Below are positions 5,020 through 22,058 of a stretch of 22,338 nt of DNA, in pieces. Location: the UHGV virus genome UHGV-0785299. The stretch is one strand, 5' to 3'. Under the pieces are notes generated by a model. The model saw only the letters and a list, made by a program, of their open reading frames with translations, was not told the origin of the DNA and searched no databases. The DNA is from a virus. Both the position numbers and the translations under genes were made by a program. The number at the start of each line of letters is the position of its first letter. Within the stretch, counting starts at the first letter, position 1.

Positions 5020-5031
5020 TATTGAATTATT

Positions 5032-6337: not shown

Positions 6338-6373
6338 TTAAAAGATAAAGGGCACGTGGTATTTAGTGCCCTT
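6338..6373 (-). terminator. intrinsic terminator-like hairpin (8-bp stem AAGGGCAC/GTGCCCTT) with TATCTTTTAA tract on minus strand
   Basis: Perfect inverted repeat 6348-6355/6366-6373 with 10-nt loop, immediately downstream of the stop at 6379. Confidence 0.45.
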
Positions 6374-6378
6374 CAGCC

Positions 6379-6973: not shown

Positions 6974-7134
6974 TTCAGGATTTGACCTGCAAGTAGATAA
7001 CAGAAACAGACAGAGAACCCGAGATACCCCAGTGATTTCAGGTAGTTTTTCCTTTCGACTTCACGAGAAAATGCAACGATGTCAATGATGCATGCAAAGA
7101 TCAGTATTGCGAGTTTAATTTGTTCGTAGTTCAT
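6970..7134 (-). CDS. small hydrophobic membrane protein (54 aa)
   Basis: Hand-translated (not in the ORF track): MNYEQIKLAILIFACIIDIVAFSREVERKNYLKSLGYLGFSVCFCYLLAGQILK; two hydrophobic segments; exactly fills the gap between gp46-like stop (7137) and the DUF4326 start with a stop/start overlap. Confidence 0.4.
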   Translation of the reverse strand: MNYEQIKLAILIFACIIDIVAFSREVERKNYLKSLGYLGFSVCFCYLLAGQILK

Positions 7135-7136
7135 GA

Positions 7137-9482
7137 TCAATCCTTCTTGATAACTTCAGTCAGGCCGTTTCGCAGGCCGTAGCGAATGTTGTGTTGGAAA
7201 TATTCCTGGAACTCCTGTTCGCGCTGGCTAATAACAAACAGGTTGTTCCCACCGAACTTATGCTTCAACATCTCAACCGATTCCTGCACCCCGCGCTCGC
7301 TCATGTTCTCAAGGATCTCGTCCAACACGAACAGGTTACATTGTACAGACGCCTTGAGGTTAGCCACATCGCGCAGAGCTAATGTCACAGCCAGGTTCAG
7401 ACGACTGCGCTGACCAGTAGACAGGGAGAAGATGCTCTGTCCTTTGCGGCCTGCTGCGCTCATGGTGATCTCAAAGGTATCGTCAACAACGATGTCCAAG
7501 AACATGTTGAGGGCTTCAAGATACTCGTTGATCTTGCTATTGAGGAATGGCAGATACAGAGCGATGATACGCGCCTTGGTCTGGTCATCTTTCAAGAAGA
7601 ACAGCAGGTGTTGTAAGTCCTGGAGTTCCTCATCTGCATCTTCACGGAGTTCATACAGAGCCTCCAGTTCACCTTCCAACGCAGCGATAGAGTTCTCCAG
7701 GTCGGTGGTAGGTGTTGGCTGTACAGCCAGTTTACGCTCCAGATCGGCAATAGACGCCACGAGAGGAGCACGACGGGCTTTCAGCTCGGCGATCTTATCA
7801 TCGACGGCTTTAATCCCGCTGACGGCATTCTCTCGCGTCTGTTGCAGCGACGCAGTGATGTCTTCAAAACGAACGTTCAGTGCCTTACGGATGTCAAGGA
7901 TCTTCTGTTGGCATTCACGGTTCAGCGAATTACACTCAATCGTGGCGGCATCATGAAAACCTTGAATATCACGGCGCAGCTGCTTGATGTTGTCGACGAT
8001 TTCGTCGGCCTGCTTGCGCATTGCATCCAGTTCAGCATCCAACATAGCAATGTCAGCAACCAGCTTGTCGTCCTGAGCCTTGTGGTCATCGATCAGGACA
8101 TTGATATCGGCGGTAACTTTGTCCAGTTGATCTAACTTCGACTGTAGTTCCTGGATCTGAGGATTGTACTCGCTTTCAATACGCGCCTTGGTATCGTCGG
8201 ACACCAGTTGGGTACATGTTGGGCAAGTCCCCATATCGTGGAAGCGCTTGATGGCCGACTGGTGGCCATCCATTTCGGTCTGGAACTTGATGCGGAAGTT
8301 CTCACCCTGTTGGCGACGCTGAATAGCAGCGTTCAGGGCATCCAGGTTTGCATTGCGCTCGGTGAGCAGGGTGTTCTTGCGTTCGGCCACTGTAAAGGCG
8401 CGGTCACGCAAGACCTGAAGATCATGCTCCGCAGTAGACACTTCGATGCGCTCATAATCGTCAGCCTTGTCCTGCGCGGCGTCCTTCACCGCCTGGACCT
8501 TGGTATCAAAGTCTTTCTTGACAGCCTCGATCTCTACCATGGATTCATCATGCAGGCGGCTTTCCACCGTCTTCATTTCCTGGGTGGCTTCAAACTCCAC
8601 AGCCGTGAGGCGGGTGCGCTCTTCATTCTGGGCGGCGATGTCAGCATCCAAGGAATTCAGGGCTTCCTGTTGCTGTACAAGGATATCGGCCGACCGCTGT
8701 TGGATCAGGGCGTTGGATTGCTCGATCTGCTGAAGCTGCGTCTTCTTGTTGGTGTGGTCAACAACCTTCAACGCACATTCATTCGCGATCGTGTCCAGCT
8801 TTTCGTTCGCTTTCTTGATGGATGCCTTGACATCTTCGTTCATCAGGCTGAAGAAGCCCAAGTCCCAGATAGTCTCCACCATGGCGCGGCGGTCGGCTGT
8901 GTACATCTCCGTGAACGGAATGAACTTCTCTTTGCCCAGCACCAGAGAGTTCTCAAACATCTTCTGGTCCACGCCGATGAGGTTCACGATGTACTTGTTC
9001 ATGTCGGCTTTGGCTGCTTCGTTATCGATCTGCAACCACTTGCCGTCCACCATCTGGTAGACTTCAACAAAGTCAGGTTTAATGCCACGGCGAACCTTCC
9101 ATTCGCTACCACGGCAGGCAAACTCTACCTCGCCCACACATTCCTTGCGGCTTTGTGAGTTAACCAGGCCTGCCTTCTTCTCCTTCTTACTGTACGTGTC
9201 GTTGTACAGTACGAAAAACAGCAGCCATACCAGCATCGTGGATTTACCCGCGCCGTTGTCATCAGACGTGACGAGGGTAGCCGGGTTGCGCTGATAATCA
9301 ATCTCCATGAATTGATTGCCGATGGAGCGGAAGTTCTTGGCGCGGCCTTTGCGGAAGGTCAGTTTGTGCGTAACGTTGTTACGCACTTCAAATGGGACTT
9401 CAACCTCGACCGGGGCGTCGGCTTCCTTCAAAAGATTACCAAATTTGGTCAAGATATCTGTGCTCTGAGTCATGTTATGCAT
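7137..9482 (-). CDS. Rad50/SbcC-family recombination ATPase (T4 gp46-like)
   Basis: 781 aa; Walker A TSDDNGAGKST near N-terminus; long coiled-coil middle with CPTC zinc-hook-like motif; ABC signature LSTGQRSR and Walker B LFVLDEIL near C-terminus; start overlaps stop of the Mre11-like gene. Confidence 0.9.
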   Translation of the reverse strand: MHNMTQSTDILTKFGNLLKEADAPVEVEVPFEVRNNVTHKLTFRKGRAKNFRSIGNQFMEIDYQRNPATLVTSDDNGAGKSTMLVWLLFFVLYNDTYSKKEKKAGLVNSQSRKECVGEVEFACRGSEWKVRRGIKPDFVEVYQMVDGKWLQIDNEAAKADMNKYIVNLIGVDQKMFENSLVLGKEKFIPFTEMYTADRRAMVETIWDLGFFSLMNEDVKASIKKANEKLDTIANECALKVVDHTNKKTQLQQIEQSNALIQQRSADILVQQQEALNSLDADIAAQNEERTRLTAVEFEATQEMKTVESRLHDESMVEIEAVKKDFDTKVQAVKDAAQDKADDYERIEVSTAEHDLQVLRDRAFTVAERKNTLLTERNANLDALNAAIQRRQQGENFRIKFQTEMDGHQSAIKRFHDMGTCPTCTQLVSDDTKARIESEYNPQIQELQSKLDQLDKVTADINVLIDDHKAQDDKLVADIAMLDAELDAMRKQADEIVDNIKQLRRDIQGFHDAATIECNSLNRECQQKILDIRKALNVRFEDITASLQQTRENAVSGIKAVDDKIAELKARRAPLVASIADLERKLAVQPTPTTDLENSIAALEGELEALYELREDADEELQDLQHLLFFLKDDQTKARIIALYLPFLNSKINEYLEALNMFLDIVVDDTFEITMSAAGRKGQSIFSLSTGQRSRLNLAVTLALRDVANLKASVQCNLFVLDEILENMSERGVQESVEMLKHKFGGNNLFVISQREQEFQEYFQHNIRYGLRNGLTEVIKKD

Positions 9483-10590
9483 CCAGTTTGTTCAGGCGTT
9501 GTTGGGCAGCATTATAGAAGTGCTCTGCTAGTTTACAGACATTGTCGGGGCGCTGAATGTTGTTCCCGGCGCGGATATCCTTCTTCAGGACTTCCACCGC
9601 ATCGGTCGCCACCATCTCTTCGGTGACCTCAACCTTCTCGGCAGCAACAGTAATCGTCCGGTCGATGAAGTTATAGTCAATACACTTGCATCGCTTCATC
9701 GCATCACAGAACTTTTCATAATGCTTAGCATTGTCGCGGTTCTGTACAATAACCTTAACGATTTGCCCTTCAATACCCAAGCCTGTGTTCAACCATTCCG
9801 GGTCGATCCAATTGCCTTCTTCATCAGAGGACAACTTGGTGTAATCATATTCCACATAGCGGAACAGCGTCTGATTCTCGGCGTTTGGGATAAAGATCTC
9901 ACCACCACGCATGTCGTCCACATAGAAGCCACGGTTGGTGCCGTCTTTGTAGTCTTCCCAGTTCAGGTGATACGGAGTCCCAATATATTGAATGTTACCT
10001 TCCATCGAACGGGTATGGAAATGGCCCGTGTCGACCCTGGTAAACTTGGAAAGCAGCGCAACGTCGATCTGACCGTGATCACAAGTAGAAGACTGGTACA
10101 TTTTGAACCCCGCCAGCTCCAGATGCGCAAAACAGTACTCGGCGTCTGTATCTTGTATCGCTTTAATAGACGCATCATAGTTCTCCTTGTTGATCCAAGG
10201 CAGCAGCAGAGTCTTGACACCCTCGATCATCACTTCGGTTGGTTCGCTGTAATAGCAGTACACATCCGGGTCGAGTTCGTTCAGGTAGGATGGCCAGTTG
10301 ATGCGGTTGGACTCTTCCAGGGTGATGTCATGGTTGCCCACGATGCCATTCCACTTGATACCAGCCGCTTTCAGCGCTGGAGTTAATTCATCCTTCAGCC
10401 AGTCTTTGTCGCGCCCGTACATGAATTTGCGGACATCAAACATATCACCGAACTGCCAGACCTCTTTGATATCAGAGTCGGCAAGTTCAGGAATGAAATA
10501 ATTGATGAGATAGTTCTTGATGAAGTCGCGAACGTATCGAGAACCATTACGGCTCCCGATATGCAGATCACCAATTTTAGCAATCGCCAT
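9475..10590 (-). CDS. Mre11/SbcD-family nuclease (T4 gp47-like)
   Basis: 371 aa; calcineurin-like phosphoesterase motifs GDLHIG, GDMFD, GNHD, GHFH in canonical order; immediately upstream of and overlapping the Rad50-like gene, as in T4 genes 47-46. Confidence 0.9.
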   Translation of the reverse strand: MAIAKIGDLHIGSRNGSRYVRDFIKNYLINYFIPELADSDIKEVWQFGDMFDVRKFMYGRDKDWLKDELTPALKAAGIKWNGIVGNHDITLEESNRINWPSYLNELDPDVYCYYSEPTEVMIEGVKTLLLPWINKENYDASIKAIQDTDAEYCFAHLELAGFKMYQSSTCDHGQIDVALLSKFTRVDTGHFHTRSMEGNIQYIGTPYHLNWEDYKDGTNRGFYVDDMRGGEIFIPNAENQTLFRYVEYDYTKLSSDEEGNWIDPEWLNTGLGIEGQIVKVIVQNRDNAKHYEKFCDAMKRCKCIDYNFIDRTITVAAEKVEVTEEMVATDAVEVLKKDIRAGNNIQRPDNVCKLAEHFYNAAQQRLNKLDA

Positions 10591-11318
10591 TATTCTGTTT
10601 CTCCTTCGGTTTCATCTAGTCCGAATTGGGTTTTGCCGAAGTCCTGATCTGAATTGTCTTCGGCCTGCGCTGTTACCGTATTCTTAGCCTGCGCCATGTA
10701 TTGAAGTATGCCTTTCGCAATCTTTTTATTCGATTCTGCGAGACGAGCTGCCTCCACCTTCTCTCGCTCCTTCTGCCTTTGAGCGTCCTTTTTGTTCTCA
10801 AAGTTGCCGATACGTTCACGGAAGTCCATGCCAATTCCTGTAGCATCAACAAAGACCTCTTGTTGGAAGTCGGGATCGTCTGCCAGGCCTGCGAACCCAC
10901 CCGCCTCTTCAAATGAGCGCAATTTAATGTACGTGTGCTCTTCTTCGATGTTCAGTTTACGAGCAAATGATCGATCAGCACACATGGTCACCCAAGAGAA
11001 GAAGTTGATCTTCCCTTTCTTTCCAATGTGTTCGACGTCAAATGTGTGGAGGTAGCGCAGGATATTGACTATTGCTTCAGAGACCATGTCTTCACGGAAG
11101 GGATAGTCGCGATAGTTGTAGCGGGTGCTCATCTTGGTGATGATGCGCTGGACCTGTAGAGCAACATAGTTGGGGATCTTTGGAAGCCTGGTGCCTTCAG
11201 CCAGAGCCTTCTTACGAGCAGGGATCCAATCACGAAGGATACTGATGACACGCTCGTTATCTTCGTCTGTGAAATATTTGACGACATTCTCCCCTCTGTC
11301 CACGAAGTTCATTCCCAT
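10590..11318 (-). CDS. late-transcription sigma factor (T4 gp55-like) with acidic C-terminal extension
   Basis: 242 aa; position directly upstream of the 47/46-like pair matches T4-like gene order; N-terminal half (ISILRDW..., RYNYRDY, ...LHTFD) resembles T4 gp55 from memory; perfect TATAAATA boxes occur in the window; GAGGGA RBS; 1-nt stop/start overlap with the gp47-like gene. Confidence 0.55.
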   Translation of the reverse strand: MGMNFVDRGENVVKYFTDEDNERVISILRDWIPARKKALAEGTRLPKIPNYVALQVQRIITKMSTRYNYRDYPFREDMVSEAIVNILRYLHTFDVEHIGKKGKINFFSWVTMCADRSFARKLNIEEEHTYIKLRSFEEAGGFAGLADDPDFQQEVFVDATGIGMDFRERIGNFENKKDAQRQKEREKVEAARLAESNKKIAKGILQYMAQAKNTVTAQAEDNSDQDFGKTQFGLDETEGETE

Positions 11319-11329
11319 TATGAAATCCC

Positions 11330-11857
11330 TCAGATACCGATAAATTCATCAAAAGATCCAACAACCTTCTTCACCGAGATATTGTCATTCTCAATCAGGA
11401 AGTTGCTGTCGTTTTTGGCTGCTGTAGCCCAGTCATCGGCAAGTTCGTTGCCTTCGTGTCCCGCATGACCCTTAACCCATTTTAGTTCAACTTCACAGAT
11501 TGAACAAACGAGATCATAGATTCTGAACAGATCTTTGATGAGTTCAACGTTCTTTTCTGGGAAACCCTGATACTCCCACTTCGTTCGCCATTCGGTGACA
11601 CTCTTGATGGCATATTGGCTGTCAGACCAAATTGTTGCCTTTGGTATTCTGCGCTCACCCTTTCCTGAGAATGCCCACAGTAGCTTCAATGCGTTGGTCA
11701 CGCCCAACAACTCGGCGATATTGTTAGTGGACGGGGGAGGTAGATGGCCGAAGAACACCTTCCATTGCATACCCGTTATTGGCCTGATAACAAATGCCCA
11801 GCCTGCGGCCTGGTTGGTCTTCGGGTTAGAACCCCCGTCAGAATAAATTTCTATCAT
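11330..11857 (-). CDS. rnhA: ribonuclease HI
   Basis: ORF 11330..11953; preferred start ATG at 11857 (MIEIYSDGGS...). Strong match to E. coli RNase HI catalytic segments: YSDGGS (TDGS), TNNIAELLG (TNNRMELMA), SDSQYA (TDSQYV), KWVKGHAGHEGNELAD (WVKGHAGHPENERCD). Confidence 0.8.
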   Translation of the reverse strand: MIEIYSDGGSNPKTNQAAGWAFVIRPITGMQWKVFFGHLPPPSTNNIAELLGVTNALKLLWAFSGKGERRIPKATIWSDSQYAIKSVTEWRTKWEYQGFPEKNVELIKDLFRIYDLVCSICEVELKWVKGHAGHEGNELADDWATAAKNDSNFLIENDNISVKKVVGSFDEFIGI

Positions 11858-11859
11858 GA

Positions 11860-11867
11860 TATAAATA
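11860..11867 (+). promoter_or_regulatory. T4-type late promoter box TATAAATA (plus strand)
   Basis: Exact TATAAATA at 11860-11867, 35 nt upstream of ATG 11903 with AGAGGA RBS in between; directly abuts the RNase HI start codon on the opposite strand. Confidence 0.55.
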
Positions 11868-11902
11868 TCCCAAACTGGTTTTATAGAAAGAGGAATGAAA
11901 CT

Positions 11903-12670
11903 ATGGCACCCCGCGCATATCGTTTCAGTCTCACCGCCCCGCAGATTGAGCAATTGCTCCTCTCTATCTATGATGCTATCAAGTCAGAAGATATCATCTA
12001 TGATTATGCTGCAGGTGGGACTGCTGGACAAGTCGCAGCAGCGTCTGCTGTCAAGAACATGTGGTTGAAGCTCAACGAGATGGTGACAGGCCAAGGTCTC
12101 AAAGATGCCATCAACGATGCAGAAGACAGCAACGTGTTCACCGACTATTATAAGTCTTTACTGGATCGCGAAGGTTGGAAATTTATTGGATCTCCAGCAG
12201 ATGAACTTCAGCGAGGCGACATCGATACCTCGAACTTCAAAGGTGGTGAGGTCATTCTACTTCAGAAGAACGCTTCGGGCAACCCAGAATTCCAATACTG
12301 GAAGCGAACCCCTGTTGCTGGGGGTGATCCTACCTTTGCATGGGCTTCGGTCTATGAAGGGAACTCTAATGATTCCAGCATAGAGATTCCCGTGGTTGGC
12401 ACCAGCGTACTCAAGGACATCCCCAAGGCACTCTTCCATATGATCGAGTTCAGAGTGCATGTCTACGATGAGACACTGGGTCATTGGCAAGACACCGACG
12501 GGAAGGTGGGGTATCGTGGCGAGGATCTGATCTACAGTGTATACAACCATATTCAGACCAAACCTCTCGCCACCATTGACTTCAGCCAAGATACGGACAA
12601 TATGACGGTTTCTGTGACGTCGTTGGAACCGAATGTCAAGTGCCATCTGTCCTTCGTTGCGGGTTACTAA
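11903..12670 (+). CDS. hypothetical late protein (255 aa), possibly structural
   Basis: ORF 11744..12670; preferred start ATG 11903 (MAPRAYRFSLTAPQ...) because it follows the late-promoter box and RBS and avoids overlap with RNase HI coding sequence; stop overlaps the stop of the convergent helicase gene (CTAA); no motif recognised. Confidence 0.6.
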   Translation: MAPRAYRFSLTAPQIEQLLLSIYDAIKSEDIIYDYAAGGTAGQVAAASAVKNMWLKLNEMVTGQGLKDAINDAEDSNVFTDYYKSLLDREGWKFIGSPADELQRGDIDTSNFKGGEVILLQKNASGNPEFQYWKRTPVAGGDPTFAWASVYEGNSNDSSIEIPVVGTSVLKDIPKALFHMIEFRVHVYDETLGHWQDTDGKVGYRGEDLIYSVYNHIQTKPLATIDFSQDTDNMTVSVTSLEPNVKCHLSFVAGY

Positions 12671-14385
12671 ACCTCAAACACGGCATCAGTGAACCAAGCG
12701 GGGAAGAACTCTGGGTTGCGCATCATAAGTGATTCAAAAGAAGAATCAAGGATGTACGTCGCAGCCCAGTCATTCACGCCCCTGACCGAACGCCCACACA
12801 TCTGAACGATACGCAGTACCGCCATCCTGAAGTACGCCGATGGGTCCACACTGTTGACGTGGGCCACCAGAGGATCACCAAGGTAATCGTATGGCACCTT
12901 GATCAAGATCTGAAATCTGCTATAATCGCCTTTGAAGTCATACCCCTCTTCCATGGCCGGACTGGCGATGACACAAGGCGTCTTCGTCCTGAACGCGTGT
13001 TCCATGATGTCCATCAGAGCCTTACGAGTACGAGGAACGTGAATCATATTCCGGTACTTACTGAACTTTTGTAGAGCCAGGGCGCGGTCATAACTGACTG
13101 TGTGAATGATGCCAGACTGCCCAGGGTGGAACGCGATAATTTCATCCACGTATTCAGCCAGCTTCTTCATCTCGTAGTCACCCATGTTCGCTGTCATCTT
13201 CATGATGGGCATGTAGTTGACTTTCCGGTTCTCAATCGGGATAGGGTTGCCGATCTGTATCTTGTGGTACTCACCCTCGGGGATACCCAGTGACCGGGCG
13301 TACGAGTCAATCCCACAAATGGTAGCCGACATGTGAACGTGGTAGTCACCCTTGCGGAACAGGCCGAACTGGGATACATCAGAGGCGATGACAGGCTTGA
13401 ACTGAATCATACCCTTGTCCTTCTCCTGTACGATGAAAGTGCTGGCGTTGGTCTGCCCCATGATACCACAGTAGTCGCTGAGGTTGTGAAGAGTATCAAT
13501 AATATCAGACAGCTTCATCACCTGGGCTTCAGTCAGGCGCTCGTCCTCTACCAGTTCCTCAAGAGTTTCCAACAGGGCTTCAACCTTGCCGTGCAGTTCA
13601 TCAAATATCGCATGCATCTCACCAGACAGGGAATACAGCTTGCCCAATTCATAGTTCTCTGTGCGGATGATGATATCCTTGATGGTCTCCACGATAGGCA
13701 CTCCCTCAGGGATCGTAAGCAACCCTTCCACAGCCTTTATGTTGTATTCCATGATAGTATGCTCTAGGAGCGTAGAGGGCATTTTATGACACTCGTCAAG
13801 GATCAGCATATCGGCACGGTTTTCCGGCTTCATACAAATCGTCGTACACATCTCCACCATCATGGCGGCGTTGGTGCAGCGCAGGGAGGAGACGTCGGTC
13901 CACTGTCGACGCGCCTGAACATATGGACAACGATTCTTACTACAGTGGCCATCACGGCATGCCATACGGCACTGAATGGCGTTGTAGTATAGGTCGGGGC
14001 TGATGTGGCAACGGTAGTTCTTCTTGCCCTTCAGGATGTCTATCGCCACGGCTTTCTCTGCTGCATACTGATCCTGTAAACCTTTGGTCGGCGTCGTGAT
14101 AGACGTGCGGAACTGACCATACGGGTTGTGCTCAAGAACCAAATGGCGAAGCACGTTATGGATGGTAGTGCCGATGAGGGATTTACCTACACCAGTCGGA
14201 GCCTCGATGATCACGTGTTTGAATTTCTTATTCACAAGGGCATCAATGGCTTCAACGATGCATTCCATCTGGCCGGGGTTGGCGGTGTCATACGGGAAGA
14301 ACTCAGTGGCAAGAGACTTGATGCGGTCTATGCTGACTGGTCCGACGCCGTCAAGCGCCTTGGTATATTGGTTGAATGCTGTCAC
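12667..14385 (-). CDS. DinG/XPD-like superfamily-2 helicase with Fe-S cluster cysteines
   Basis: 572 aa; GTG start with AGGAGGAA RBS; Walker A IEAPTGVGKSLIG; DEAH-type box LILDECHKM; Cys cluster CHISPD ... CRMACRDGHCSKNRCP between them; HMSATICG (SATL-like motif) and GRSVRG near C-terminus. Confidence 0.75.
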   Translation of the reverse strand: MTAFNQYTKALDGVGPVSIDRIKSLATEFFPYDTANPGQMECIVEAIDALVNKKFKHVIIEAPTGVGKSLIGTTIHNVLRHLVLEHNPYGQFRTSITTPTKGLQDQYAAEKAVAIDILKGKKNYRCHISPDLYYNAIQCRMACRDGHCSKNRCPYVQARRQWTDVSSLRCTNAAMMVEMCTTICMKPENRADMLILDECHKMPSTLLEHTIMEYNIKAVEGLLTIPEGVPIVETIKDIIIRTENYELGKLYSLSGEMHAIFDELHGKVEALLETLEELVEDERLTEAQVMKLSDIIDTLHNLSDYCGIMGQTNASTFIVQEKDKGMIQFKPVIASDVSQFGLFRKGDYHVHMSATICGIDSYARSLGIPEGEYHKIQIGNPIPIENRKVNYMPIMKMTANMGDYEMKKLAEYVDEIIAFHPGQSGIIHTVSYDRALALQKFSKYRNMIHVPRTRKALMDIMEHAFRTKTPCVIASPAMEEGYDFKGDYSRFQILIKVPYDYLGDPLVAHVNSVDPSAYFRMAVLRIVQMCGRSVRGVNDWAATYILDSSFESLMMRNPEFFPAWFTDAVFEV

Positions 14386-14435
14386 TTTCTTCCTCCTATG
14401 GGATTCGCCTTTAGTTTAACCGATTCCCAGGAACG

Positions 14436-14470
14436 AAAAAGCCGGAGTACAATGCTCCGGCTTTCTCTTT
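14436..14470. terminator. bidirectional intrinsic terminator hairpin (GCCGGAG/CTCCGGC) flanked by A5 and T-rich tracts
   Basis: 7-bp GC-rich stem 14441-14447/14455-14461 with 7-nt loop; AAAAA upstream and TTTCTCTTTT downstream on plus, giving a U-tract in either direction; sits between the HU-like gene stop and the helicase start. Confidence 0.6.
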
Positions 14471-14513
14471 TGCCATGCCCTGATTGCAGAGCCTGGCCGC
14501 GCGTCAGATAGAA

Positions 14514-14792
14514 TTACTTGCCGTTGGCAGCGTTCTTCAGACCTTCGCCCACTTTGAATTTCACAACGTTTTTCGCCGCGATCTGAATGGTCTGGCCGTT
14601 CAGAGGGTTGCGACCTTCACGCGCTTCTTGGTGTTTCACTTCGAACGCACCGAAGCCGACCAGCTGTACAGATGCGCCTGCAGCAACTGCAGTTTTAACA
14701 CCGTCGATAAAGGATGCCACTACTTTCTCCGCTTCGCCTTTGGTGATATTCTGGGTCGAAGCAATGTGGGCAACAAATTCAGTACGATTCAT
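14514..14792 (-). CDS. HU/IHF-family histone-like DNA-binding protein
   Basis: 92 aa; GFGAFEVKHQEAREGRNPLNGQTIQIAAKNVVKFK is the classic HU beta-arm region; GGAG RBS 9 nt upstream of ATG. Confidence 0.85.
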   Translation of the reverse strand: MNRTEFVAHIASTQNITKGEAEKVVASFIDGVKTAVAAGASVQLVGFGAFEVKHQEAREGRNPLNGQTIQIAAKNVVKFKVGEGLKNAANGK

Positions 14793-14917
14793 CTGGATTT
14801 CTCCGTTGGGTTAATGTTTACTTTCATGTTCACTACAAGAGGGCTACAGTTTAACTAACAAATTTTATTGAATAAAGCGGAATTAATAGCCTTTCACCAC
14901 GATTACAGTCTTTGTGC

Positions 14918-15357
14918 TCATATTTGCTCCGTTTGTTTCTCAACGCCCAGTGCGGCGGCATAGATACCACGAGCCATGCGATCATCACAAAATCCATACG
15001 TGAATAATCCAGCAATGGCATCAAGGCGTTCCTGTGTTGGTGTGACAGGCACAGACACCGTTTGAACTTCAGTCTTTTCGGTGCCTTCCGGTTTCATCAA
15101 GACCTCCATTTCTTGACGACTAACAACAATGGTTTCTACCTTATCTTCATCGATCAACATTTCGTTCAGAAGATCGTATCCCAACACTTGTGTATCGCCG
15201 ATATATGTCTTCGCGTTCAGTTGTGCTTCGATACTTAACACCCTCTGAGCTGTAAGGCCACCAGAGGAGAACGGTACTGGATAGAAGGCGGAACGCACTT
15301 GGGCACACCCATTTACGCTGTAACGAACCAGCAAGACATCACACCATACGCCAGCCA
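14918..15357 (-). CDS. hypothetical protein (146 aa)
   Basis: ORF 14918..15376; preferred start ATG 15357 (MAGVWCDV...) with GGAGGTG RBS 5 nt upstream, 2 nt after the stop of the upstream gene. Confidence 0.55.
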
Positions 15358-15359
15358 TA

Positions 15360-16022
15360 TTACACCTCCACCGCATGAGACTTCAGGAGTTCATCAATCT
15401 CTTTCTGCCCCATGTATGAGAACGGGGTGCGCTGGTAGAACGCCCAGAGTACTAACTGGACAACAGCACGGGAACGGGTTTCGGCCGTCATCACCAGGCC
15501 ACTGAAATGAGGAGACTCAGCTGTCCATTGTATCTCTTCGCCCAGGTCTTGATTACAGGTCACCGAGATGCGGAACTTGTTGCACAGATTGTCGACTTCT
15601 TTGTACGCATCGGTAGACACACGAAGTTGTTCCGCATGTGCCCACGGAGTTGTGACGATTCTTTCACCCAACGTCTTTTCTGAAACGAACCAATCAATAG
15701 ATTGGGTAAACTCGCTAAAATGGTCGATACGATAAATACAGTCTCCCCCTTCCATAGAACGCATGGCATGATAGCGAGCGTCAATTTCATTGTTGTGCAT
15801 AGCGTTGAAGTCGATGAACACGCGACGCGCCAGCACAACATCTTCTGGTTGAAGTGCCAGGAAATCGTTCAGGCGGCTATAATGGAGGATATTGGAACCG
15901 TCGTGGCCACGTGTGCAATATGCGTAATAGCTACCGATACGGGTGTGGGTAATATAAGACAACGGGGCGAAGAATAATCCGTCAGGATCAGGACCGACGA
16001 TAATAGAATAAAGTTTTTCCAT
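15360..16022 (-). CDS. hypothetical protein (220 aa)
   Basis: ORF 15360..16121; preferred start ATG 16022 (MEKLYSIIVGPD...) which avoids overlap with the upstream gene; start choice uncertain; no motif recognised. Confidence 0.5.
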   Translation of the reverse strand: MEKLYSIIVGPDPDGLFFAPLSYITHTRIGSYYAYCTRGHDGSNILHYSRLNDFLALQPEDVVLARRVFIDFNAMHNNEIDARYHAMRSMEGGDCIYRIDHFSEFTQSIDWFVSEKTLGERIVTTPWAHAEQLRVSTDAYKEVDNLCNKFRISVTCNQDLGEEIQWTAESPHFSGLVMTAETRSRAVVQLVLWAFYQRTPFSYMGQKEIDELLKSHAVEV

Positions 16023-16078
16023 GATATAGTCACTCAAATGAAAGGGCAGCTTTATGATAAGCCGCCCGAGGTTATTGA

Positions 16079-16945
16079 TTATTGGAAATCGCCAACATAC
16101 ATGTTCAGCTTGTCGTCCCAATTCAGAACGACACGGATCGTTCCAGTATCTTCTGGGAAGGTCAGTTTGTCACACATGGCGCGATTAACATAAGTCCCGC
16201 TCTGGTTGACGTTGTAGTCCTTGCCTTGCATGATACCAAAACGCTTGAAGTCGCGAGTGACCATCATGTTCAGAGTTGTCCAAGGGATTGTATCGCGCAG
16301 GGCTTTGCACAGGACGATCTTGCCATCCGACCTGAACGACACAAACAGCTCGTTGGCGACACGACGGCGAGTAGGCGGTTCAAGTTCACGCAGGGAAATG
16401 AATTGTGAATTCTTTACCTTTTCTGCCAGCGCCTGTACTTCTGCTGGATCCGGCTTGAACGGCTCCACTGAAGAGTCAGACTTCATCACAACGTCACCCT
16501 TGCGCTTCTCAACCAATTGCTCCACAGCCTTTTGACTCACGGGAGGGAGGTATTTGGACTTAGGAACAACCGCTGGCTTGATGACAGGGCTTGCATCTGG
16601 TTTCGCCTTTGGAGTACTCCGAGCCGCACGCAGCTTTTCCTGGGCTTGTAGAATGCGCTCTTGACGAGAAAGCGGAGCCTTTGGGGTGATCTTCGTACTG
16701 AAGTCAGAAACGCCGACCCAGTCACCCTGGTCGTTGCGCTTGGCGACCAGGGTCAGTTTGTGGATGATACCCTGAAGTTTGCTCTCACGTAAGTTGTCGG
16801 CATACCAGAACTTCGCGCCCATCTCGAACTTCTCGGCGAAGATCACGCGAGCGTCTTCGTGTACCAACATAACTTTGGCTGCGTTGGGGGCAAAAGCCTT
16901 ATTCTTTTCGATAATCGCCGCAGCGATTGTTTTGGTCAGGAGCAT
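16079..16945 (-). CDS. hypothetical protein (288 aa), basic Lys/Pro-rich central linker
   Basis: ORF 16079..16948 (GTG) with ATG at 16945; central low-complexity segment STPKAKPDASPVIKPAVVPKSKYLPPVSQK between two globular-looking halves. Confidence 0.6.
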   Translation of the reverse strand: MLLTKTIAAAIIEKNKAFAPNAAKVMLVHEDARVIFAEKFEMGAKFWYADNLRESKLQGIIHKLTLVAKRNDQGDWVGVSDFSTKITPKAPLSRQERILQAQEKLRAARSTPKAKPDASPVIKPAVVPKSKYLPPVSQKAVEQLVEKRKGDVVMKSDSSVEPFKPDPAEVQALAEKVKNSQFISLRELEPPTRRRVANELFVSFRSDGKIVLCKALRDTIPWTTLNMMVTRDFKRFGIMQGKDYNVNQSGTYVNRAMCDKLTFPEDTGTIRVVLNWDDKLNMYVGDFQ

Positions 16946-16984
16946 CACAGTGTATTCCTTCAGTTCACAATGTAGGGCTAAATT

Positions 16985-17311
16985 TTAACCCGAAACTTTA
17001 TTTTGAAATCCGACAAAGTCCTGGGCAATCCCCCGACAATACATCAGGTCTTTCTTCGTTTGTGGACTGTTATCAGCCGCAGTCAGCATCATGGGAAGAT
17101 CCAGCGCATTCTCTATCTGATCAACACTGAACAGATCAAGGCGCTTCAGCTCCCCCTCGAAGTCGGACAGGAGGATAGATGTGTCTTTGTCATCTGGGTG
17201 GAACTGCTGATACGTCTCCATCCATGCCACACATGTGTTCAGTTTGGACGGTGGCGCGGCGTTTACACACCCGGCTATCAGTACCAACAAGAGCAGGATT
17301 TTACATTTCAT
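16985..17311 (-). CDS. lipoprotein (candidate superinfection-exclusion or envelope protein)
   Basis: MKCKILLLLVLIAGCVNAAPP: signal peptide ending in a lipobox (LIAGC); ATG 17311 overlaps the stop of the upstream gene (TGATG). Confidence 0.65.
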   Translation of the reverse strand: MKCKILLLLVLIAGCVNAAPPSKLNTCVAWMETYQQFHPDDKDTSILLSDFEGELKRLDLFSVDQIENALDLPMMLTAADNSPQTKKDLMYCRGIAQDFVGFQNKVSG

Positions 17312-17997
17312 CACTCGTTCTCCTTCATCATATTGTCGCAGTCAACACGAGTCTGCTGGAGTTCGCGCGACATGCGGGGATCATCAAGGTTCACGCTCAG
17401 ATTCGTGGCCAGGTCTTTCAGACCGTTCTGAACACGATCCTCAAAATAATAATCGTTCTCAACCAGCCAGGCTCTGAGACCAAGAGCGCGGGTGCGCCAT
17501 TCCTTCTTCAGGACGCGATCAGAGGTCTGCGTGGCGCTGTATTCGAATACTTTGACGCACTGGTTGCCATCGTTGATGAGGTTCAGGTGGCGGCGACCAA
17601 CCTGCACACCCTTCTGTAATGCCGGAGAAGGGAGCGAACGGCACTGTCTGACTGTCATTCGGCCTTGGGTGCCCATTCGGCCAGTCATGATTAAATCGCC
17701 AGCCTCCATGCCTCCACGGTTAAATTCGTCGTCATTGAGGTAGCCTTTGAGGTTATAGGCTCCCTGTTTGTAACGGTTGAACTCAATTCCGGCATTGACG
17801 ACAGCAGTGGAGACGTTGCCTGTGTTCCAGAGTTCAGCGAAGTTCTCTATGGAACCAGACTTGTCGATGGCAACCGCCTGGGAGAACCCAGCACAATAGG
17901 AAAGGTCGGACCACAGTTTATCACCTGTGGAGTTCAGCTTGGCAGCGGCGGGTAATGCCAGACCAGCCAGCACAACCCCGAGGATTAAACGTTTCAT
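17311..17997 (-). CDS. secreted hypothetical protein (228 aa)
   Basis: ORF 17311..18162; preferred start ATG 17997 (MKRLILGVVLAGLALPAAA...) gives a typical cleavable signal peptide; GGAGAA RBS upstream. Confidence 0.6.
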   Translation of the reverse strand: MKRLILGVVLAGLALPAAAKLNSTGDKLWSDLSYCAGFSQAVAIDKSGSIENFAELWNTGNVSTAVVNAGIEFNRYKQGAYNLKGYLNDDEFNRGGMEAGDLIMTGRMGTQGRMTVRQCRSLPSPALQKGVQVGRRHLNLINDGNQCVKVFEYSATQTSDRVLKKEWRTRALGLRAWLVENDYYFEDRVQNGLKDLATNLSVNLDDPRMSRELQQTRVDCDNMMKENE

Positions 17998-18076
17998 GGC
18001 GATTCTCCTTATTTCATTGGATGAAATGATAGGCGGCTCACCATGTTGAGTAAAGGGATTCAATAAACTATCGTAT

Positions 18077-18526
18077 TCAGAAACGGGTATCACTGACCGT
18101 TCTGTATCGCACACCCTGAAACTGTTTAGCGAGTTTAACAAATTCCATCGCTGGCAAATCAACTTTGTAGACCTTCATGCGCTGTTTGCCGTCCATGTTC
18201 AACGCAGCGACAAATCGGTGAGAACCGTCAACAACGTAATTGTCAGAAGACACCCAAACTCGACCCATAGGTTTCTTATTTCTGATCTGCTTCATAATCT
18301 TCCAGACCTTCATTTTATTGATTTCGTTCTGGGTAAGACGAAGCATTTTGATGGGCACTTGCACAGCATCTATGGACACGCCGTTGTCTTCAAGATATTT
18401 GTGAAAATCTTCTTGTTTGTCGGCATCGATTTGCGGCATAGAAGAACGAGAAAGCCCGAGGTTCCCAACAGGAATCCTCAGGCCGTTAATGATGTTCAAC
18501 CAGTCAATAAAAGATGTAAGGAACAT
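18077..18526 (-). CDS. hypothetical protein, possible ParB/Srx-like nuclease fold
   Basis: 149 aa; VVDGSHRFVAA resembles the DGxHR core of ParB N-terminal-domain nucleases; otherwise unassigned. Confidence 0.5.
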   Translation of the reverse strand: MFLTSFIDWLNIINGLRIPVGNLGLSRSSMPQIDADKQEDFHKYLEDNGVSIDAVQVPIKMLRLTQNEINKMKVWKIMKQIRNKKPMGRVWVSSDNYVVDGSHRFVAALNMDGKQRMKVYKVDLPAMEFVKLAKQFQGVRYRTVSDTRF

Positions 18527-18558
18527 GACACACCTCGGGATATAGGGTTATCCCTTAG

Positions 18559-18750
18559 TTAGCGCATCCATCGATCCTTTCTCTCTTTCTCCTTGCGTTC
18601 GCGACGTTTCTGATCGGATCGGAATAACCAATAGAAGAAGTTCCCACCCAAGATGAAAACCACCGCGATTATTACTAGGACACCCTTCACAATTTCCCAA
18701 ACCAATTCTTTATCCAAATTATACCTCGTCTTCTTCAGGTCCACCGTCAA
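18559..18750 (-). CDS. small membrane protein (one TM helix, basic C-tail)
   Basis: 63 aa; hydrophobic stretch VKGVLVIIAVVFILGGNFFYWLF followed by KRRERKEKERKDRWMR; start may be later than 18750 because it overlaps the upstream ORF. Confidence 0.45.
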   Translation of the reverse strand: MTVDLKKTRYNLDKELVWEIVKGVLVIIAVVFILGGNFFYWLFRSDQKRRERKEKERKDRWMR

Positions 18751-19006
18751 TCAGGATACGAGCGGTGTCGAAAGTTTCCCCGCCCGTGTTCAACAGCTTG
18801 GTTAGATCATCAAGAGTACCGACAGGACCAAGATCAGCCTGGCGGAGAACGAACTCGAGAAGCCCGTAGAGCGCTGATTGGAATCGGCTGTTGTCGATAT
18901 CGTTCTTTATTACCATCAGGCGTAAGATGTTCTCTGACTGAGTATGGCCAACACACGCCTTGTCTCTGATCATCTCCTTGATAGAACTTCTCTCGGATGG
19001 TGTCAT
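18719..19006 (-). CDS. hypothetical protein or C-terminal continuation of the 18834..19376 gene after a frameshift
   Basis: 95-aa ORF that overlaps the 3-prime 172 nt of the 18834..19376 ORF in another frame; its translation looks more protein-like than the Arg/Pro/Ser-rich tail of the other frame. Confidence 0.4.
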   Translation of the reverse strand: MTPSERSSIKEMIRDKACVGHTQSENILRLMVIKNDIDNSRFQSALYGLLEFVLRQADLGPVGTLDDLTKLLNTGGETFDTARILIDGGPEEDEV

Positions 19007-19376
19007 AAGTACCCCCGACAGAGATCAAGAACTCTTCTTGCATGGTCTTGACCGGGTGGTGGTTGCGGGTTTCGAACATGAAGCCCCAGCCACCGTCGGC
19101 GACGTTGCCAAAGGTCTTGACGCCAAAGGACTTCGTCCCGTTGGAGCAGGAATAGATGTCCAGGACGTATGGGCTACCCTGATTGTCGATCCCACGATTC
19201 ACGTCGTCTGATACGCAGCGCTCAATCATCTTCCCGTTCTTATACAGAACGAGGTCTTGGCCATACGCCTTGAAAGCATAAACACCGTTGGTAGACACTC
19301 CGGTGATGACAGGAGGGGCGGAAACAGCAGCAAAGGAAGCGCCCAGCAGGGCAACAGCGAGGATTAACTTTTTCAT
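18834..19376 (-). CDS. secreted hypothetical protein (possible frameshifted gene)
   Basis: ATG 19376 gives signal peptide MKKLILAVALLGASFAAVSAPP, similar in style to the 17997 gene; C-terminal about 50 aa (…GVCWPYSVREHLTPDGNKERYRQQPIPISALRASRVRSPPG) looks out-of-frame. Confidence 0.5.
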   Translation of the reverse strand: MKKLILAVALLGASFAAVSAPPVITGVSTNGVYAFKAYGQDLVLYKNGKMIERCVSDDVNRGIDNQGSPYVLDIYSCSNGTKSFGVKTFGNVADGGWGFMFETRNHHPVKTMQEEFLISVGGTYDTIREKFYQGDDQRQGVCWPYSVREHLTPDGNKERYRQQPIPISALRASRVRSPPG

Positions 19377-19400
19377 GATATAGTCTCTTGGTTTCAAATG

Positions 19401-19422
19401 GGCGGGGTATGATTACCCCGCC
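19401..19422 (-). terminator. GC-rich hairpin (GGCGGGG/CCCCGCC) between two minus-strand genes
   Basis: Perfect 7-bp inverted repeat with 8-nt loop; only moderate T-richness flanking, so could be a terminator or an RNA structural element. Confidence 0.4.
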
Positions 19423-19428
19423 GTGGGT

Positions 19429-19935
19429 TTATAGGGTAACAAGTGATACGGTAAAAACCATCGTCCCGTCTGTTGCCATTTTTCTTGAAACTGGTATGAC
19501 GCGAGGCTGGCAGAATATCCATTCTTTCTCCATGGACGCCAAGTCCAGCATATCCATTTCTGATTCATCGCCTTTGTTCACAAATTTTTCTAGAGAACCA
19601 TAGACATTAAGCCCCTCCGGGATTCTGTTTCGATGTTTGTAACAAATGCGGGCAACAGCTTGGGTTCCGTACGATTTAGAAAATTTTTTGGCCACATGCT
19701 TCAGTTCACTGAAGCTAAGGCAAGAATCCCATGTCTGGAACATGTCGCCTCGTTCAAACATCATCCCTAAACGCGCAACGTCCTCTTTAGGCAACCCGCG
19801 ATAAAGTGTGGTCGTCTGTGGTTCGCGCAATTCTTGCACCAGATCACGGACGGCAGGGGAAACAGTACCGGGGCGCATGATGTGGGACTTATCATGGACG
19901 AGGTAAAATAAATCTTGAATTTGTTGATCGGTCAT
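19429..19935 (-). CDS. hypothetical protein (168 aa); speculative ADP-ribosyltransferase-like R / S-x-S / E-x-E pattern
   Basis: ORF 19429..20070; preferred start ATG 19935 (MTDQQIQDLF...). TLYRG, DSCLSFS and EKEW occur in the order expected for R-S-EXE toxins, but spacing is atypical. Confidence 0.45.
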   Translation of the reverse strand: MTDQQIQDLFYLVHDKSHIMRPGTVSPAVRDLVQELREPQTTTLYRGLPKEDVARLGMMFERGDMFQTWDSCLSFSELKHVAKKFSKSYGTQAVARICYKHRNRIPEGLNVYGSLEKFVNKGDESEMDMLDLASMEKEWIFCQPRVIPVSRKMATDGTMVFTVSLVTL

Positions 19936-19954
19936 GGTATAGTTCCTGCCTTCC

Positions 19955-20194
19955 TTGGTGAAGCCAGAAGACACTGTGAGCGTTCTGTATTTCTCCTCCA
20001 AAGGCGACTTTGGTACTGTGTTCGCTGGCCGCCAGATCAATGCAGCATCCGACCTGAGCGAAATCAACAAACTGATCGACCGTTTCCTGCAACCATCCGG
20101 CTGTACTGGTTTCGTTGAGCCATTGAAACTGGCGATGGATACTGCTCGTGGCCTGAGAAGCCTGGCTACGTCACAACCTGGCGTTCATGACTGA
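19955..20194 (+). pseudogene. fragment of a vWA-domain gene (frame-disrupted)
   Basis: TTG-initiated ORF encoding VSVLYFSS...GCTGFVEPLKLAMDTARGL...QPGV, which looks like the central strands and helices of a von Willebrand A domain; the expected next motif (FMTDGYDN) is encoded immediately downstream but in another frame (20184-20207), and frame-2 stops occur at 20192 and 20201. Confidence 0.45.
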
Positions 20195-20317
20195 CGGGTA
20201 TGACAACTGCTGGCGTACCACGAAATTCTACTGGTTGCTGAGACCCTGCCATTTGCTTTCGATAACATTACTTTCATCGAATATGGCTGGTACTGTAACC
20301 GAGAACTGCTGGCGCAG

Positions 20318-21487
20318 ATGGCCGAACTCTCTGGTGCTACTCACGTGTTTGCCGAAGGTCAGACCGAATACCAGACCGAACTGGAAAACGTGCTGAAGTC
20401 ATCAGTGCCGAAGGTGGTTGTTGATGTGCCTCTGCTATACACCCACGCCATCTATGTTGAAAACGGCGTAGCAACTGTTCTGGCGGTACAGCCGGATGAA
20501 GACCATCCTATCGGCCACGTGAGCATCCCTGAGAGCGTCACCAAGCTGTGGGTTGTAAACCCTAACATGATCGACCAGATGGATAGCCTGACGGACATCC
20601 AGGCGGCATATGTGCTGGCGTTCTACGGTGTACACACTATGGACGCAGATCTGGTTTGGGCTGCGCTGAAGAAGACGGGCGACGTTCGCTTCATCAAACA
20701 GTACAGCAACTGCTTCACCAAGCAGGACTACTCCAACATCAAGAACGATCTGGTACAGGCGATTGTTGACGACCAGCTGCGCGGCGTTGACGGTATTGAC
20801 TATGACCTGGTTCCAGCTGAAGATGCGACCACCGTCGTTGATGTGCTGACGTACCTGGCTGAAGCTGGTGTGCCTGTTGCTACCAAGCATCCGATGTTCT
20901 CCTACAAGAGCATCGGGCGCGGTACTGTGCAGAAAACCGACGACACCGAAGACAAGCTGGCAGAACAGATCGCGAATGCTCAGTCCAAAGAAGAGCGTAA
21001 AGCCCTGGCTCTCAAGCTGGCAGAGCACGAAGAGTGGAACCCGACGTTCGAACCTACCAACGATCTGGGTGTTGTGCCAATCAGTGATTTGGTCTATAAC
21101 TCCGAGCGCCCGAACATCAGTGTGCGTACAATTCAACACGGTACTGTGGCTGTGCCTGAATTCGCACAGAAGAAGTTTGGCCTGCCTGAAGAACTGGATA
21201 CTTTCCAGTGGCGCAACTACACCATCGTCAAAGACGGTATCATTAACGTGAAGACTCTGCCGTTCAAGGCTGATATCGAAGTCGTGCATAAGCTGATCGA
21301 AATGGGCGTCCACGTGTTTGGTGGTCCAGAAGTGTTTGTCCTGAACCTGGAAAGCGTACCGCTGGTCAACCGCGCCATGGTCAAGAACATCAGTGCTGCT
21401 CAGTTCTTTGCGGATAATGTCCGTCTGGAAGCCCTGAAAAGGCAAGCAGAAGGTGCTGAAGTTCTATCGAGACGCCCTGGTTGGTAA
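20318..21487 (+). CDS. central part of the vWA-domain protein (open frame actually extends upstream to 20204)
   Basis: 389-aa ORF in the same frame as the 19955 fragment; protein-like translation continues upstream of the first ATG back to 20204; ends 5 codons after an A4 run where a +1 shift joins it to the next ORF. Confidence 0.6.
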   Translation: MAELSGATHVFAEGQTEYQTELENVLKSSVPKVVVDVPLLYTHAIYVENGVATVLAVQPDEDHPIGHVSIPESVTKLWVVNPNMIDQMDSLTDIQAAYVLAFYGVHTMDADLVWAALKKTGDVRFIKQYSNCFTKQDYSNIKNDLVQAIVDDQLRGVDGIDYDLVPAEDATTVVDVLTYLAEAGVPVATKHPMFSYKSIGRGTVQKTDDTEDKLAEQIANAQSKEERKALALKLAEHEEWNPTFEPTNDLGVVPISDLVYNSERPNISVRTIQHGTVAVPEFAQKKFGLPEELDTFQWRNYTIVKDGIINVKTLPFKADIEVVHKLIEMGVHVFGGPEVFVLNLESVPLVNRAMVKNISAAQFFADNVRLEALKRQAEGAEVLSRRPGW

Positions 21488-22058
21488 GGGTAACGCCAAA
21501 GGCCTGGCAGTACAGTACGGCGCTGAGGCGGCCGAGTTCCTGTCCTCCTACGGCATCCGCGATTACGGCTTCTCACCGAAGACTGAGACCAAAGAGTCTA
21601 CCGACTTCTACATGAGCCGTGAGCTGAACGTGAAGATCGCCGGGGCGTCTTCACTACCGAGCATCGCGGCAGTACAGAAGAAGATCGCAGAGAACAAGAA
21701 ACTCAATGCTGGTGACTTGTTCATCGCCAATGCTCTGAAAGAGTACGAAGCATTCGTGAAGTCTCCTATGATCACTGCCGTGCCTGAAGCCTTACAGAAA
21801 CAGCTGATCGAAAACTGGATCGACGCTGCTGCCAAGGCGGCCATCACCGAAGTCCGTGCCCTGAACAAGACACTGTCTAAAGTGGTGTATGGTATCGTTG
21901 CTGGCCACGGCTGGTTCACCGACCTCGACCTGGAAGAGTCCACCATGGAAGTTGAAGTGGATGGCGTGAAGTACAAGGTCACTGCCGAACTGACAGAGAA
22001 AGAAAATCAAAATCTAATCCAACGGGCGGGGCAACCCGCCTTTCTTTGGGAGAAGTAG
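21453..22058 (+). CDS. C-terminal part of the same protein (reached by a +1 shift at 21437-21440)
   Basis: GTG-initiated ORF; skipping one A of the AAAA run at 21437-21440 fuses ...NVRLEALK to GKQKVLKFYRDALVGKGNAKG... without a stop; last codons overlap a terminator hairpin. Confidence 0.55.
   Translation: MLKFYRDALVGKGNAKGLAVQYGAEAAEFLSSYGIRDYGFSPKTETKESTDFYMSRELNVKIAGASSLPSIAAVQKKIAENKKLNAGDLFIANALKEYEAFVKSPMITAVPEALQKQLIENWIDAAAKAAITEVRALNKTLSKVVYGIVAGHGWFTDLDLEESTMEVEVDGVKYKVTAELTEKENQNLIQRAGQPAFLWEK
22025..22047 (+). terminator. intrinsic terminator (GGCGGG/CCCGCC stem, GCAA tetraloop, TTTCTTT tract)
   Basis: Perfect 6-bp GC stem 22025-22030/22035-22040 with GNRA-type loop followed by a T-rich run; overlaps the last codons of the upstream ORF and precedes the RBS GGGAGAAG of the next gene. 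Confidence 0.55.

What the first reader, a model, noticed from the sequence alone, without database searches (positions are those of the whole stretch)
18719..19376. Overlapping ORFs suggest a frameshift inside a secreted-protein gene
The 18834-19376 ORF has a plausible signal peptide and globular start but ends in an Arg/Pro/Ser-rich tail typical of out-of-frame translation, while a second ORF (18719-19006) overlapping it by 172 nt in another frame has a well-composed sequence. A single indel near 18960-19010 would fuse the good N-terminal part to the good C-terminal part.
Basis: seen in the sequence. Interest (0 to 1): 0.4.

Follow-up and report, generated by a model that had tools for sequence, protein, structure and literature searches.

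The report
One missing base, probably sequencing error
One base is missing five bases before the stop codon of a small secreted phage protein gene, so the gene seems to run 57 codons into its neighbour; every related phage, including another assembly of the same virus, has that base, so this is almost certainly a sequencing or assembly error in two ordinary adjacent genes.

Summary
The two overlapping ORFs exist as described, both on the minus strand. ORF A is 18834..19376 (180 aa, signal-peptide-like start). ORF B is 18719..19006 (95 aa).

The window is an Ackermannviridae phage, about 97% identical to Escherichia phage AV101 and Enterobacter phage fGh-Ecl02. In every relative examined, A is 122-125 aa. 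It ends ...GGTL with a TGA that overlaps B's ATG (ATGA).

The window alone lacks one base between 19008 and 19009: GGGGGTAC-TTATGAC against GGGGGTACGTTATGAC. That removes A's stop and adds a 57-residue out-of-frame tail. Putting the base back restores the stop. It does not fuse A to B, so the fusion idea is rejected.

B is a free-standing 86-97 aa protein in 41 clusters. The tail frame carries stops in relatives.

The origin is most likely technical. Contigs from a gut-virome assembly of essentially the same phage (0-1 mismatches over 19 kb) carry the base. They differ from the window only by one- or two-base indels. The window has nine private indels, eight of them in homopolymer runs. Six cluster in its last 3.3 kb, around an inverted joint with 5-nt microhomology.

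Interest is low.

The parts
19003..19376 (-). Gene A as it exists in all relatives. It encodes a small secreted protein: a signal-peptide-like N-terminus plus an 8-stranded all-beta core, family PHROG 5474. It is 374 nt in the window and 375 nt (124 aa + TGA) once the missing base is restored.
   Evidence: relatives 124-125 aa ending GG(G)TL, then TGA; PHROG 5474, E 4.7e-52, residues 1-123 on profile 1-120/121; AlphaFold model, pLDDT 83; repair gives 124 aa.
19008..19009 (-). Site of the window-private one-base deletion. On the coding strand GGGGGTAC[G]TTATGAC reads GGGGGTACTTATGAC. On the + strand a C is missing between A19008 and G19009. It lies 5 nt before A's normal stop, between B's Shine-Dalgarno-like GGGGG and B's ATG.
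   Evidence: Alignment A1; blastn indel lists; all 18 phage records that cover at least 80% of window 18950-19070 span one or more extra bases.
18834..19002 (-). Spurious 3' extension of ORF A (56 further codons plus stop). It is read in the frame one base ahead of B's frame. It is not a conserved coding frame.
   Evidence: In this frame relatives have stops: at codon 4 in Maynard, Marshall, CECAV_050 and the P46FS4-like contig, and at codon 39 in fGh-Ecl02 and AV101. Changed codons, synonymous/non-synonymous: 73/1273 in this frame against 574/737 in frame B. No homologue covers it.
18719..19006 (-). Gene B: an independent 95-aa protein (PHROG 4458), predicted helical, function unknown. Its ATG (19006..19004) overlaps A's normal TGA (19005..19003).
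   Evidence: E 1.4e-37, whole profile; 41 clusters, 86-97 aa, mostly 100% coverage; Met1 invariant in 25 sequences down to 48% identity; helical model, pLDDT 72.
19012..19016 (-). GGGGG run inside the 3' end of A. It is annotated as the ribosome-binding site of gene B in phage Maynard. The deletion shortens its spacing to B's ATG by one base.
   Evidence: Maynard RBS feature for Maynard_91; sequence context.

Best explanation
These are two ordinary adjacent phage genes. A encodes a 124-aa secreted beta-barrel protein and B a 95-aa helical protein. In this phage family they are joined by an ATGA stop/start overlap, the usual arrangement for translational coupling. In the window one base is missing 5 nt before A's stop. 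A's reading frame therefore slips past the TGA and runs 57 out-of-frame codons across the first 173 nt of B. Shown: the deletion, its position, its uniqueness, and the independence of the two genes. Inferred: the missing base is a sequencing or assembly error, not a mutation. The window appears to be one of several assemblies of the same virome phage population made from indel-prone, low-coverage data.
For: (1) Alignment A1: nine distinct relatives read ...GGGGGT(GGA)AC(G/A)TTATGAC; only the window lacks the base. (2): every one of the 18 phage records covering at least 80% of window 18950-19070 has a longer span in the record; the window's 29-mer is absent from the IMG/VR, GTDB-genome and JGI-metagenome collections; the 180-aa product is not on record. 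(3): contig CYGL01000374.1 (L020) matches window 174-19203 with 1 mismatch. Logan ERR975170_46 (L021) matches 1061-18137 with 0 mismatches. The window differs from them only by one- or two-base indels. L020 carries the normal GGGGGTACGTTATGAC. (4): CYGL01007592.1 (L025) matches window 19256-20504 with 0 mismatches and 7 one-base indels. Three are private to the window and four private to L025, and all are in short A or T runs. (5): the window has nine private one-base indels (1421, 1424, 1428, 19009, 20157, 20174, 20221, 21440, 22006), eight of them in runs of two or more. Repairing the five in the VWA gene gives one open frame of 690 codons. (6): private substitutions are not raised where the indels cluster; the chance that six indels all fall in the last 3.3 kb is about 1e-5. 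(7) Sibling contigs break at window 18137 and 19203, which fits poor coverage there.
Against: The target deletion is the only one of the nine private indels that is not in a homopolymer run (AACGT to AAGT), so it fits the typical error mode less well. No reads were available, so a genuine minority or fixed variant in the sampled population cannot be excluded. The sequencing platform and the use of amplification for the sibling assembly rest on my recollection of the Malawian-twin virome study; the paper could not be read. I also could not show that the window was built from the same reads as CYGL01.
Confidence: 0.8

Rival explanations
1. The deletion is a real, recent mutation in this phage lineage or in part of the population. 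Protein A would change Leu124 to Tyr and gain 56 further basic residues. Ribosomes translating A would run through B's start instead of terminating on it, probably altering B's coupled translation.
For: The base is not in a homopolymer, so it is the least error-like of the window's private indels. The change affects only the last residue of A and leaves B's ATG and coding sequence intact, so it need not be lethal.
Against: It is absent from every relative and every collection searched. It is also absent from a contig of essentially the same phage (L020). It sits among eight other private indels that break or alter conserved features with no accompanying substitutions.
Confidence: 0.17
2. One reading: A and B are the two halves of one secreted-protein gene split by an indel, and repair would fuse A's N-terminal part to B's C-terminal part.
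For: Only the overlap itself and the poor composition of A's tail.
Against: Repair restores a stop, not a fusion. PHROG 5474 and PHROG 4458 are separate full-length families. No protein among the hits from 5.8 billion clustered sequences joins them. B's Met1 is invariant down to 48% identity. Every annotated relative has two CDSs with a 4-nt overlap.
Confidence: 0.01
3. A programmed frameshift, or a conserved overlapping gene: the long form of A is a deliberate second product.
For: None beyond the existence of the open frame in the window and in three near-identical relatives (ZQ1 and two IMG/VR contigs). There the frame is open but unreachable, because A stops first.
Against: The tail frame has in-frame stops in six of the nine relatives compared. 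Its substitutions are overwhelmingly non-synonymous, 73 synonymous against 1273 non-synonymous changed codons. In all relatives A's frame meets TGA directly, so no recoding is needed or possible at that point.
Confidence: 0.01

Closest known systems
PHROG 5474 (unknown function): the 122-125 aa signal-peptide proteins of Ackermannviridae, e.g. fGh-Ecl02 USL85865.1, AV101 WJJ54087.1, Maynard_90
   Same: Residues 1-123 of window ORF A match the whole profile (E 4.7e-52). They are 100% identical to IMG/VR contig L004 over residues 1-123.
   Different: The window's ORF is 180 aa instead of 124, because of the one-base deletion. The extra 57 residues match nothing.
PHROG 4458 (unknown function): the 95-aa proteins of Ackermannviridae, e.g. 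Maynard_91, fGh-Ecl02 USL85866.1
   Same: Window ORF B matches end to end. An identical protein is found on six other contigs.
   Different: Nothing. B is intact in the window.
ATGA stop/start overlap of adjacent phage genes (translational coupling; established general knowledge)
   Same: All relatives have TTATGA, with A's TGA inside B's ATGA and a GGGGG run upstream.
   Different: In the window's text, A's frame no longer reads that TGA. Coupling itself was not tested here.
Homopolymer-type indel errors and inverted chimeric joints in amplified virome assemblies (454/Ion-type chemistry; multiple displacement amplification chimeras). This is my own knowledge; MDA as general practice in gut virome studies is stated in PMC6895007.
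   Same: Assemblies of the same phage differ by one- or two-base indels only (17 of 18 indel positions in runs), with at most one substitution. The inverted joint has 5-nt microhomology.
   Different: The target deletion is not in a run. The platform of the source data was not verified.
PliC/MliC-type periplasmic lysozyme inhibitors (small 8-stranded beta-barrels)

Membership tests
PHROG 5474 (protein A) | Full-length match to the family profile | tested here: met
   E 4.7e-52, residues 1-123 on profile positions 1-120 of 121.
PHROG 5474 (protein A) | Length 122-125 aa with a C-terminus ...G(G)(T/S)L followed by a stop overlapping the next gene's ATG | tested here: not met
   The window ORF is 180 aa. 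The feature is met only after the missing base is restored. All homologues are 102-125 aa apart from one 224-aa chimera.
PHROG 4458 (protein B) | Full-length match, about 95 aa, conserved Met1 | tested here: met
   (E 1.4e-37, residues 1-92 on profile 3-94 of 94).
Programmed ribosomal frameshift / conserved overlapping gene | The alternative frame is kept open and under purifying selection in divergent relatives | tested here: not met
   stops at codon 4 or 39 in six of nine relatives; 73 synonymous against 1273 non-synonymous changed codons in that frame.
Split (frameshifted) single gene A+B | Homologues exist in which both parts are one polypeptide | tested here: not met
   no such protein among the hits; always two CDSs.
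Sec-type signal peptide (protein A) | Basic n-region, hydrophobic h-region, small residues at -3/-1 of a cleavage site | tested here: inconclusive
   The sequence shows MKK + LILAVALLGASFAAV + SA, conserved in all homologues. It is unstructured in the model, with pLDDT below 50 for residues 1-16. No signal-peptide predictor was available.
PliC/MliC lysozyme inhibitors | Sequence membership (Pfam/NCBIfam model or PDB sequence match) | tested here: not met
   no match.
PliC/MliC lysozyme inhibitors | Specific fold similarity above that to unrelated small barrels | tested here: inconclusive

The most novel reading that the evidence does not exclude
The deletion is genuine and carried by viable phage in the sampled gut virome. 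The secreted beta-barrel protein would then carry a 57-residue basic extension encoded over gene B. Translation of B would be uncoupled from termination of A. This would be a natural snapshot of how an overlapping reading frame can be recruited.
Probability: 0.15. Interest if true: 0.15.

Novelty: not a real feature. Interest (0 to 1): 0.05.

Why it matters
The main value is for annotation. The 180-aa product should not be deposited or used as a family member. Gene A should be called as 124 aa, or flagged as frameshifted, and gene B kept as its own gene.

It is also a warning about this contig. Its last 3.3 kb carry six private one-base indels and an inverted joint that truncates and flips the VWA-domain gene. 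Other oddities there should be distrusted until reads are checked. If the deletion were real, it would be a minor strain-level variant of two proteins of unknown function.

Tried and rejected
(1) Fusion of A and B was rejected.

(2) Programmed frameshift or a conserved overlapping frame was rejected.

(3) I looked for the deletion variant elsewhere: the phage records, IMG/VR, GTDB genomes, JGI metagenomes and an exact-product look-up. Nothing was found.

(4) I looked for the window's own contig through the 389-aa fragment of the broken VWA gene. It is not on record.

(5) The apparent frameshift at window 6823 against AV101 turned out to be AV101-specific. The window agrees with fGh-Ecl02, ZQ1 and CECAV_050.

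(7) On provenance: the paper on the Malawian-twin viromes is not held. Reviews did not state its platform.

(8) The promoter and terminator scan of 18400-20100 found nothing above the shuffled expectation.

Full report
**What is in the sequence**

Both ORFs of the finding are on the minus strand. ORF A runs 19376 to 18834 from its ATG. It is 180 aa and starts MKKLILAVALLGASFAAVSA. ORF B runs 19006 to 18719 and is 95 aa. They overlap by 173 nt in different frames. The last 57 residues of A are 32% Arg+Pro+Ser with pI 9.4, against 14% and pI 6.1 for the mature core.

**What the window is**

The region matches 275 phage records, all of Ackermannviridae type. Over the whole window the best matches are Escherichia phage AV101 (97.3%), Enterobacter phage fGh-Ecl02 and Escherichia phage ZQ1.

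The neighbourhood, all on the minus strand, runs as follows:
- an ADP-ribosyltransferase-like gene (19429..19935)
- gene A
- gene B
- a 52-aa membrane protein
- a 149-aa protein with weak ParB-nuclease-like matches
- the two spanin genes

**The anatomy of the frameshift**

In fGh-Ecl02, CECAV_050, Maynard, AV101 and ZQ1, gene A is annotated as 375-378 nt. It overlaps the 288-nt gene B by 4 nt.

Alignment A1 shows the cause. Relatives read ...TCTGTCGGGGGTACGTTATGAC... or ...GGGGGTGGAACATTATGAC.... That translates as ...S V G G (G) T L stop, with the TGA inside B's ATGA. The window reads ...GGGGGTAC-TTATGAC.... One base is missing between window 19008 and 19009, 5 nt before the stop.

The consequences are small at the protein level:
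- Thr123 is unchanged.
- Leu124 becomes Tyr.
- The TGA is read through, and 56 further codons follow in a frame one base ahead of B's.

Inserting the base gives a 124-aa protein ending ...ISVGGTL.

**Two genes, not one**

- PHROG 5474 (121 positions) is covered completely by A residues 1-123. PHROG 4458 (94 positions) is covered completely by B.
- A search of 5.8 billion clustered proteins with the 180-aa ORF found 11 clusters. Nine are 122-125 aa, one is 102 aa, and one is a 224-aa chimera sharing only the first 63 residues. None extends into the tail, and query coverage is at most 68%.
- The same search with B found 41 clusters of 86-97 aa, mostly covering 100% of B. Met1 is invariant down to 48% identity.
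- In the frame of A's tail, relatives have stops. They fall at codon 4 in Maynard, Marshall, CECAV_050 and a P46FS4-like contig, and at codon 39 in fGh-Ecl02 and AV101.
- Over 12 distinct B genes, changed codons are 574 synonymous and 737 non-synonymous in frame B. In the tail frame they are 73 and 1273.

The fusion reading and any conserved-overlap or recoding reading are therefore rejected.

**Is the deletion shared?**

No.
- All 18 phage records that cover at least 80% of window 18950-19070 span one or more extra bases.
- All fetched loci read TTATGA directly after ...AC(G/A).
- The window's own 29-mer is absent from IMG/VR, the GTDB genome set and the JGI metagenome set.
- The 180-aa product is not on record.

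**Real mutation or artefact?**

The exact-protein look-ups were decisive.
- Contig CYGL01000374.1 (L020, 19,031 nt) equals window 174-19203 with one mismatch.
- Logan contig ERR975170_46 (L021, 17,081 nt) equals window 1061-18137 with no mismatch.

The window differs from these siblings only by one- or two-base indels:
- deletions at 1421, 1424 and 1428 (C5 to C4, G4 to G3 and T3 to T2 in a terminator-like hairpin)
- the target deletion, where L020 reads the normal GGGGGTACGTTATGAC

In the hairpin, all seven other genomes have the longer form. L020 in turn has two private indels that the window and L021 lack. One of them splits a 1025-aa gene.

A third contig of the same assembly, CYGL01007592.1 (L025), equals window 19256-20504 with no mismatch and seven one-base indels. 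Three are private to the window and four to L025, all in A or T runs.

Against four complete relatives, the window's private frame-changing indels are 19009, 20157, 20174, 20221, 21440 and 22006. All six lie in the last 3.3 kb; the chance of that is about 1e-5. Private substitutions are not raised there. Repairing the five in the VWA-domain gene gives one open frame of 690 codons to the normal stop.

Sequences that differ by indels alone, mostly in short runs, and at different positions in each assembly, are the signature of consensus errors from indel-prone, thin data. They are not the signature of divergence.

A table in PMC10888812 names a CYGL01 record 'Assembly HumMal, Ma_F259_Contig_623'. 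From memory, that is the Malawian-twin gut virome project, which used amplified virus-like-particle DNA and pyrosequencing. I could not verify this, because the paper is not held. PMC6895007 states that nearly all gut virome studies of that time relied on multiple displacement amplification.

One caveat remains. The target deletion is the only one of the nine private indels that is not in a run. No reads were available. I put the artefact reading at about 0.8 and a genuine variant at about 0.17.

**What the proteins are**

There is no sequence-level match in Pfam, NCBIfam or the PDB. The lysozyme-inhibitor idea is a lead, not a finding.

B is predicted helical (pLDDT 72, with a disordered acidic C-terminus) and has no specific structural match.

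**Verdict**

The overlap is real in the text of the window. It is caused by one missing base, which is most likely technical. The underlying biology is two already-catalogued, separately translated genes of unknown function with an ATGA junction. Interest is low. The practical lesson is to correct or flag the gene call and to distrust the last 3.3 kb of this contig.

Noticed in passing
window 19945-19949 (joint); inverted segment 19945-22338: From 19945 the window matches all relatives in reverse orientation. The segment holds the VWA-domain gene, lacking its first ~128 nt, and then the acyl-carrier-protein gene. It is joined to the region just upstream of the ADP-ribosylase-like gene through a 5-nt microhomology, CCTGC. 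The same joint occurs in CYGL01007592.1 (L025) from the sibling assembly, so it is in that sample's reads. It could be a real inversion or an amplification chimera.
   Followed up: partly
window 20157, 20174, 20221, 21440, 22006: Five window-private one-base indels lie in A runs: three AA to A and two AAA to AAAA. They break the VWA-domain gene into + strand ORFs 19955..20194, 20187..20396, 20318..21487 and 21453..22058. Repairing them gives one 690-codon frame ending at the normal stop. L025 has the normal base at the first three.
   Followed up: yes
window 1413-1429: An intergenic terminator-like hairpin reads TAAGCCCCGAAGGGCTT in the window. It reads TAAGCCCCCGAAGGGGCTTT in seven other genomes, including both sibling contigs. 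That is three private one-base deletions within 8 nt, all in runs.
   Followed up: partly
window 19003-19376 (-): Protein A is confidently predicted as a secreted 8-stranded beta-barrel. It resembles PliC/MliC lysozyme inhibitors and a phage 'putative lysozyme inhibitor' about as well as other small barrels. It sits three genes upstream of the spanin pair. A possible role in lysis control or exclusion was not tested.
   Followed up: partly
window 18907-19006 (-), first ~33 codons of gene B: The 5' third of gene B exists in two DNA-divergent allelic types: MTPSERSSIKEMIRDKACVGHTQSEN... and MTPEQRRSVKVMVKGKTQLSYVQSAN.... The flanks are nearly identical, a mosaic pattern that suggests recombination between lineages.
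   Followed up: no
window 6644-6973 (-); L009 9465-9626: AV101 annotates the NrdA.1-like gene as 53 aa because it has C5 where the window, fGh-Ecl02, ZQ1 and CECAV_050 have C4 and a 109-aa gene. The oddity is in AV101, not in the window.
   Followed up: partly
L020 14691-17766 (window 1436-4513): The sibling contig CYGL01000374.1 has the 1025-aa gene split into 645 and 377 aa by a private 2-nt deletion. It also has a private 1-nt deletion at window 14433. This is further evidence that this data set is indel-prone.
   Followed up: partly
protein P0010 (ENA contig of 954 nt): A 224-aa protein shares the first 63 residues of A at 97% identity and then continues with unrelated sequence. It is either a recombinant or a chimeric assembly.
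   Followed up: no
window 18077-18526 (-): The 149-aa protein matches PHROG 2859 and, weakly, ParB-like nuclease PHROGs. In one relative it is annotated 'cytidyltransferase'. The annotation looks unreliable.
   Followed up: no
L001/L010 (ON212266.1): Enterobacter phage fGh-Ecl02 is filed under Cvivirinae; Kuttervirus. Over this 20-kb region it is 96.8% identical to the window, which in turn is 97.0-97.3% identical to AV101 and ZQ1, both filed under Aglimvirinae. The taxonomy line may be wrong.
   Followed up: no
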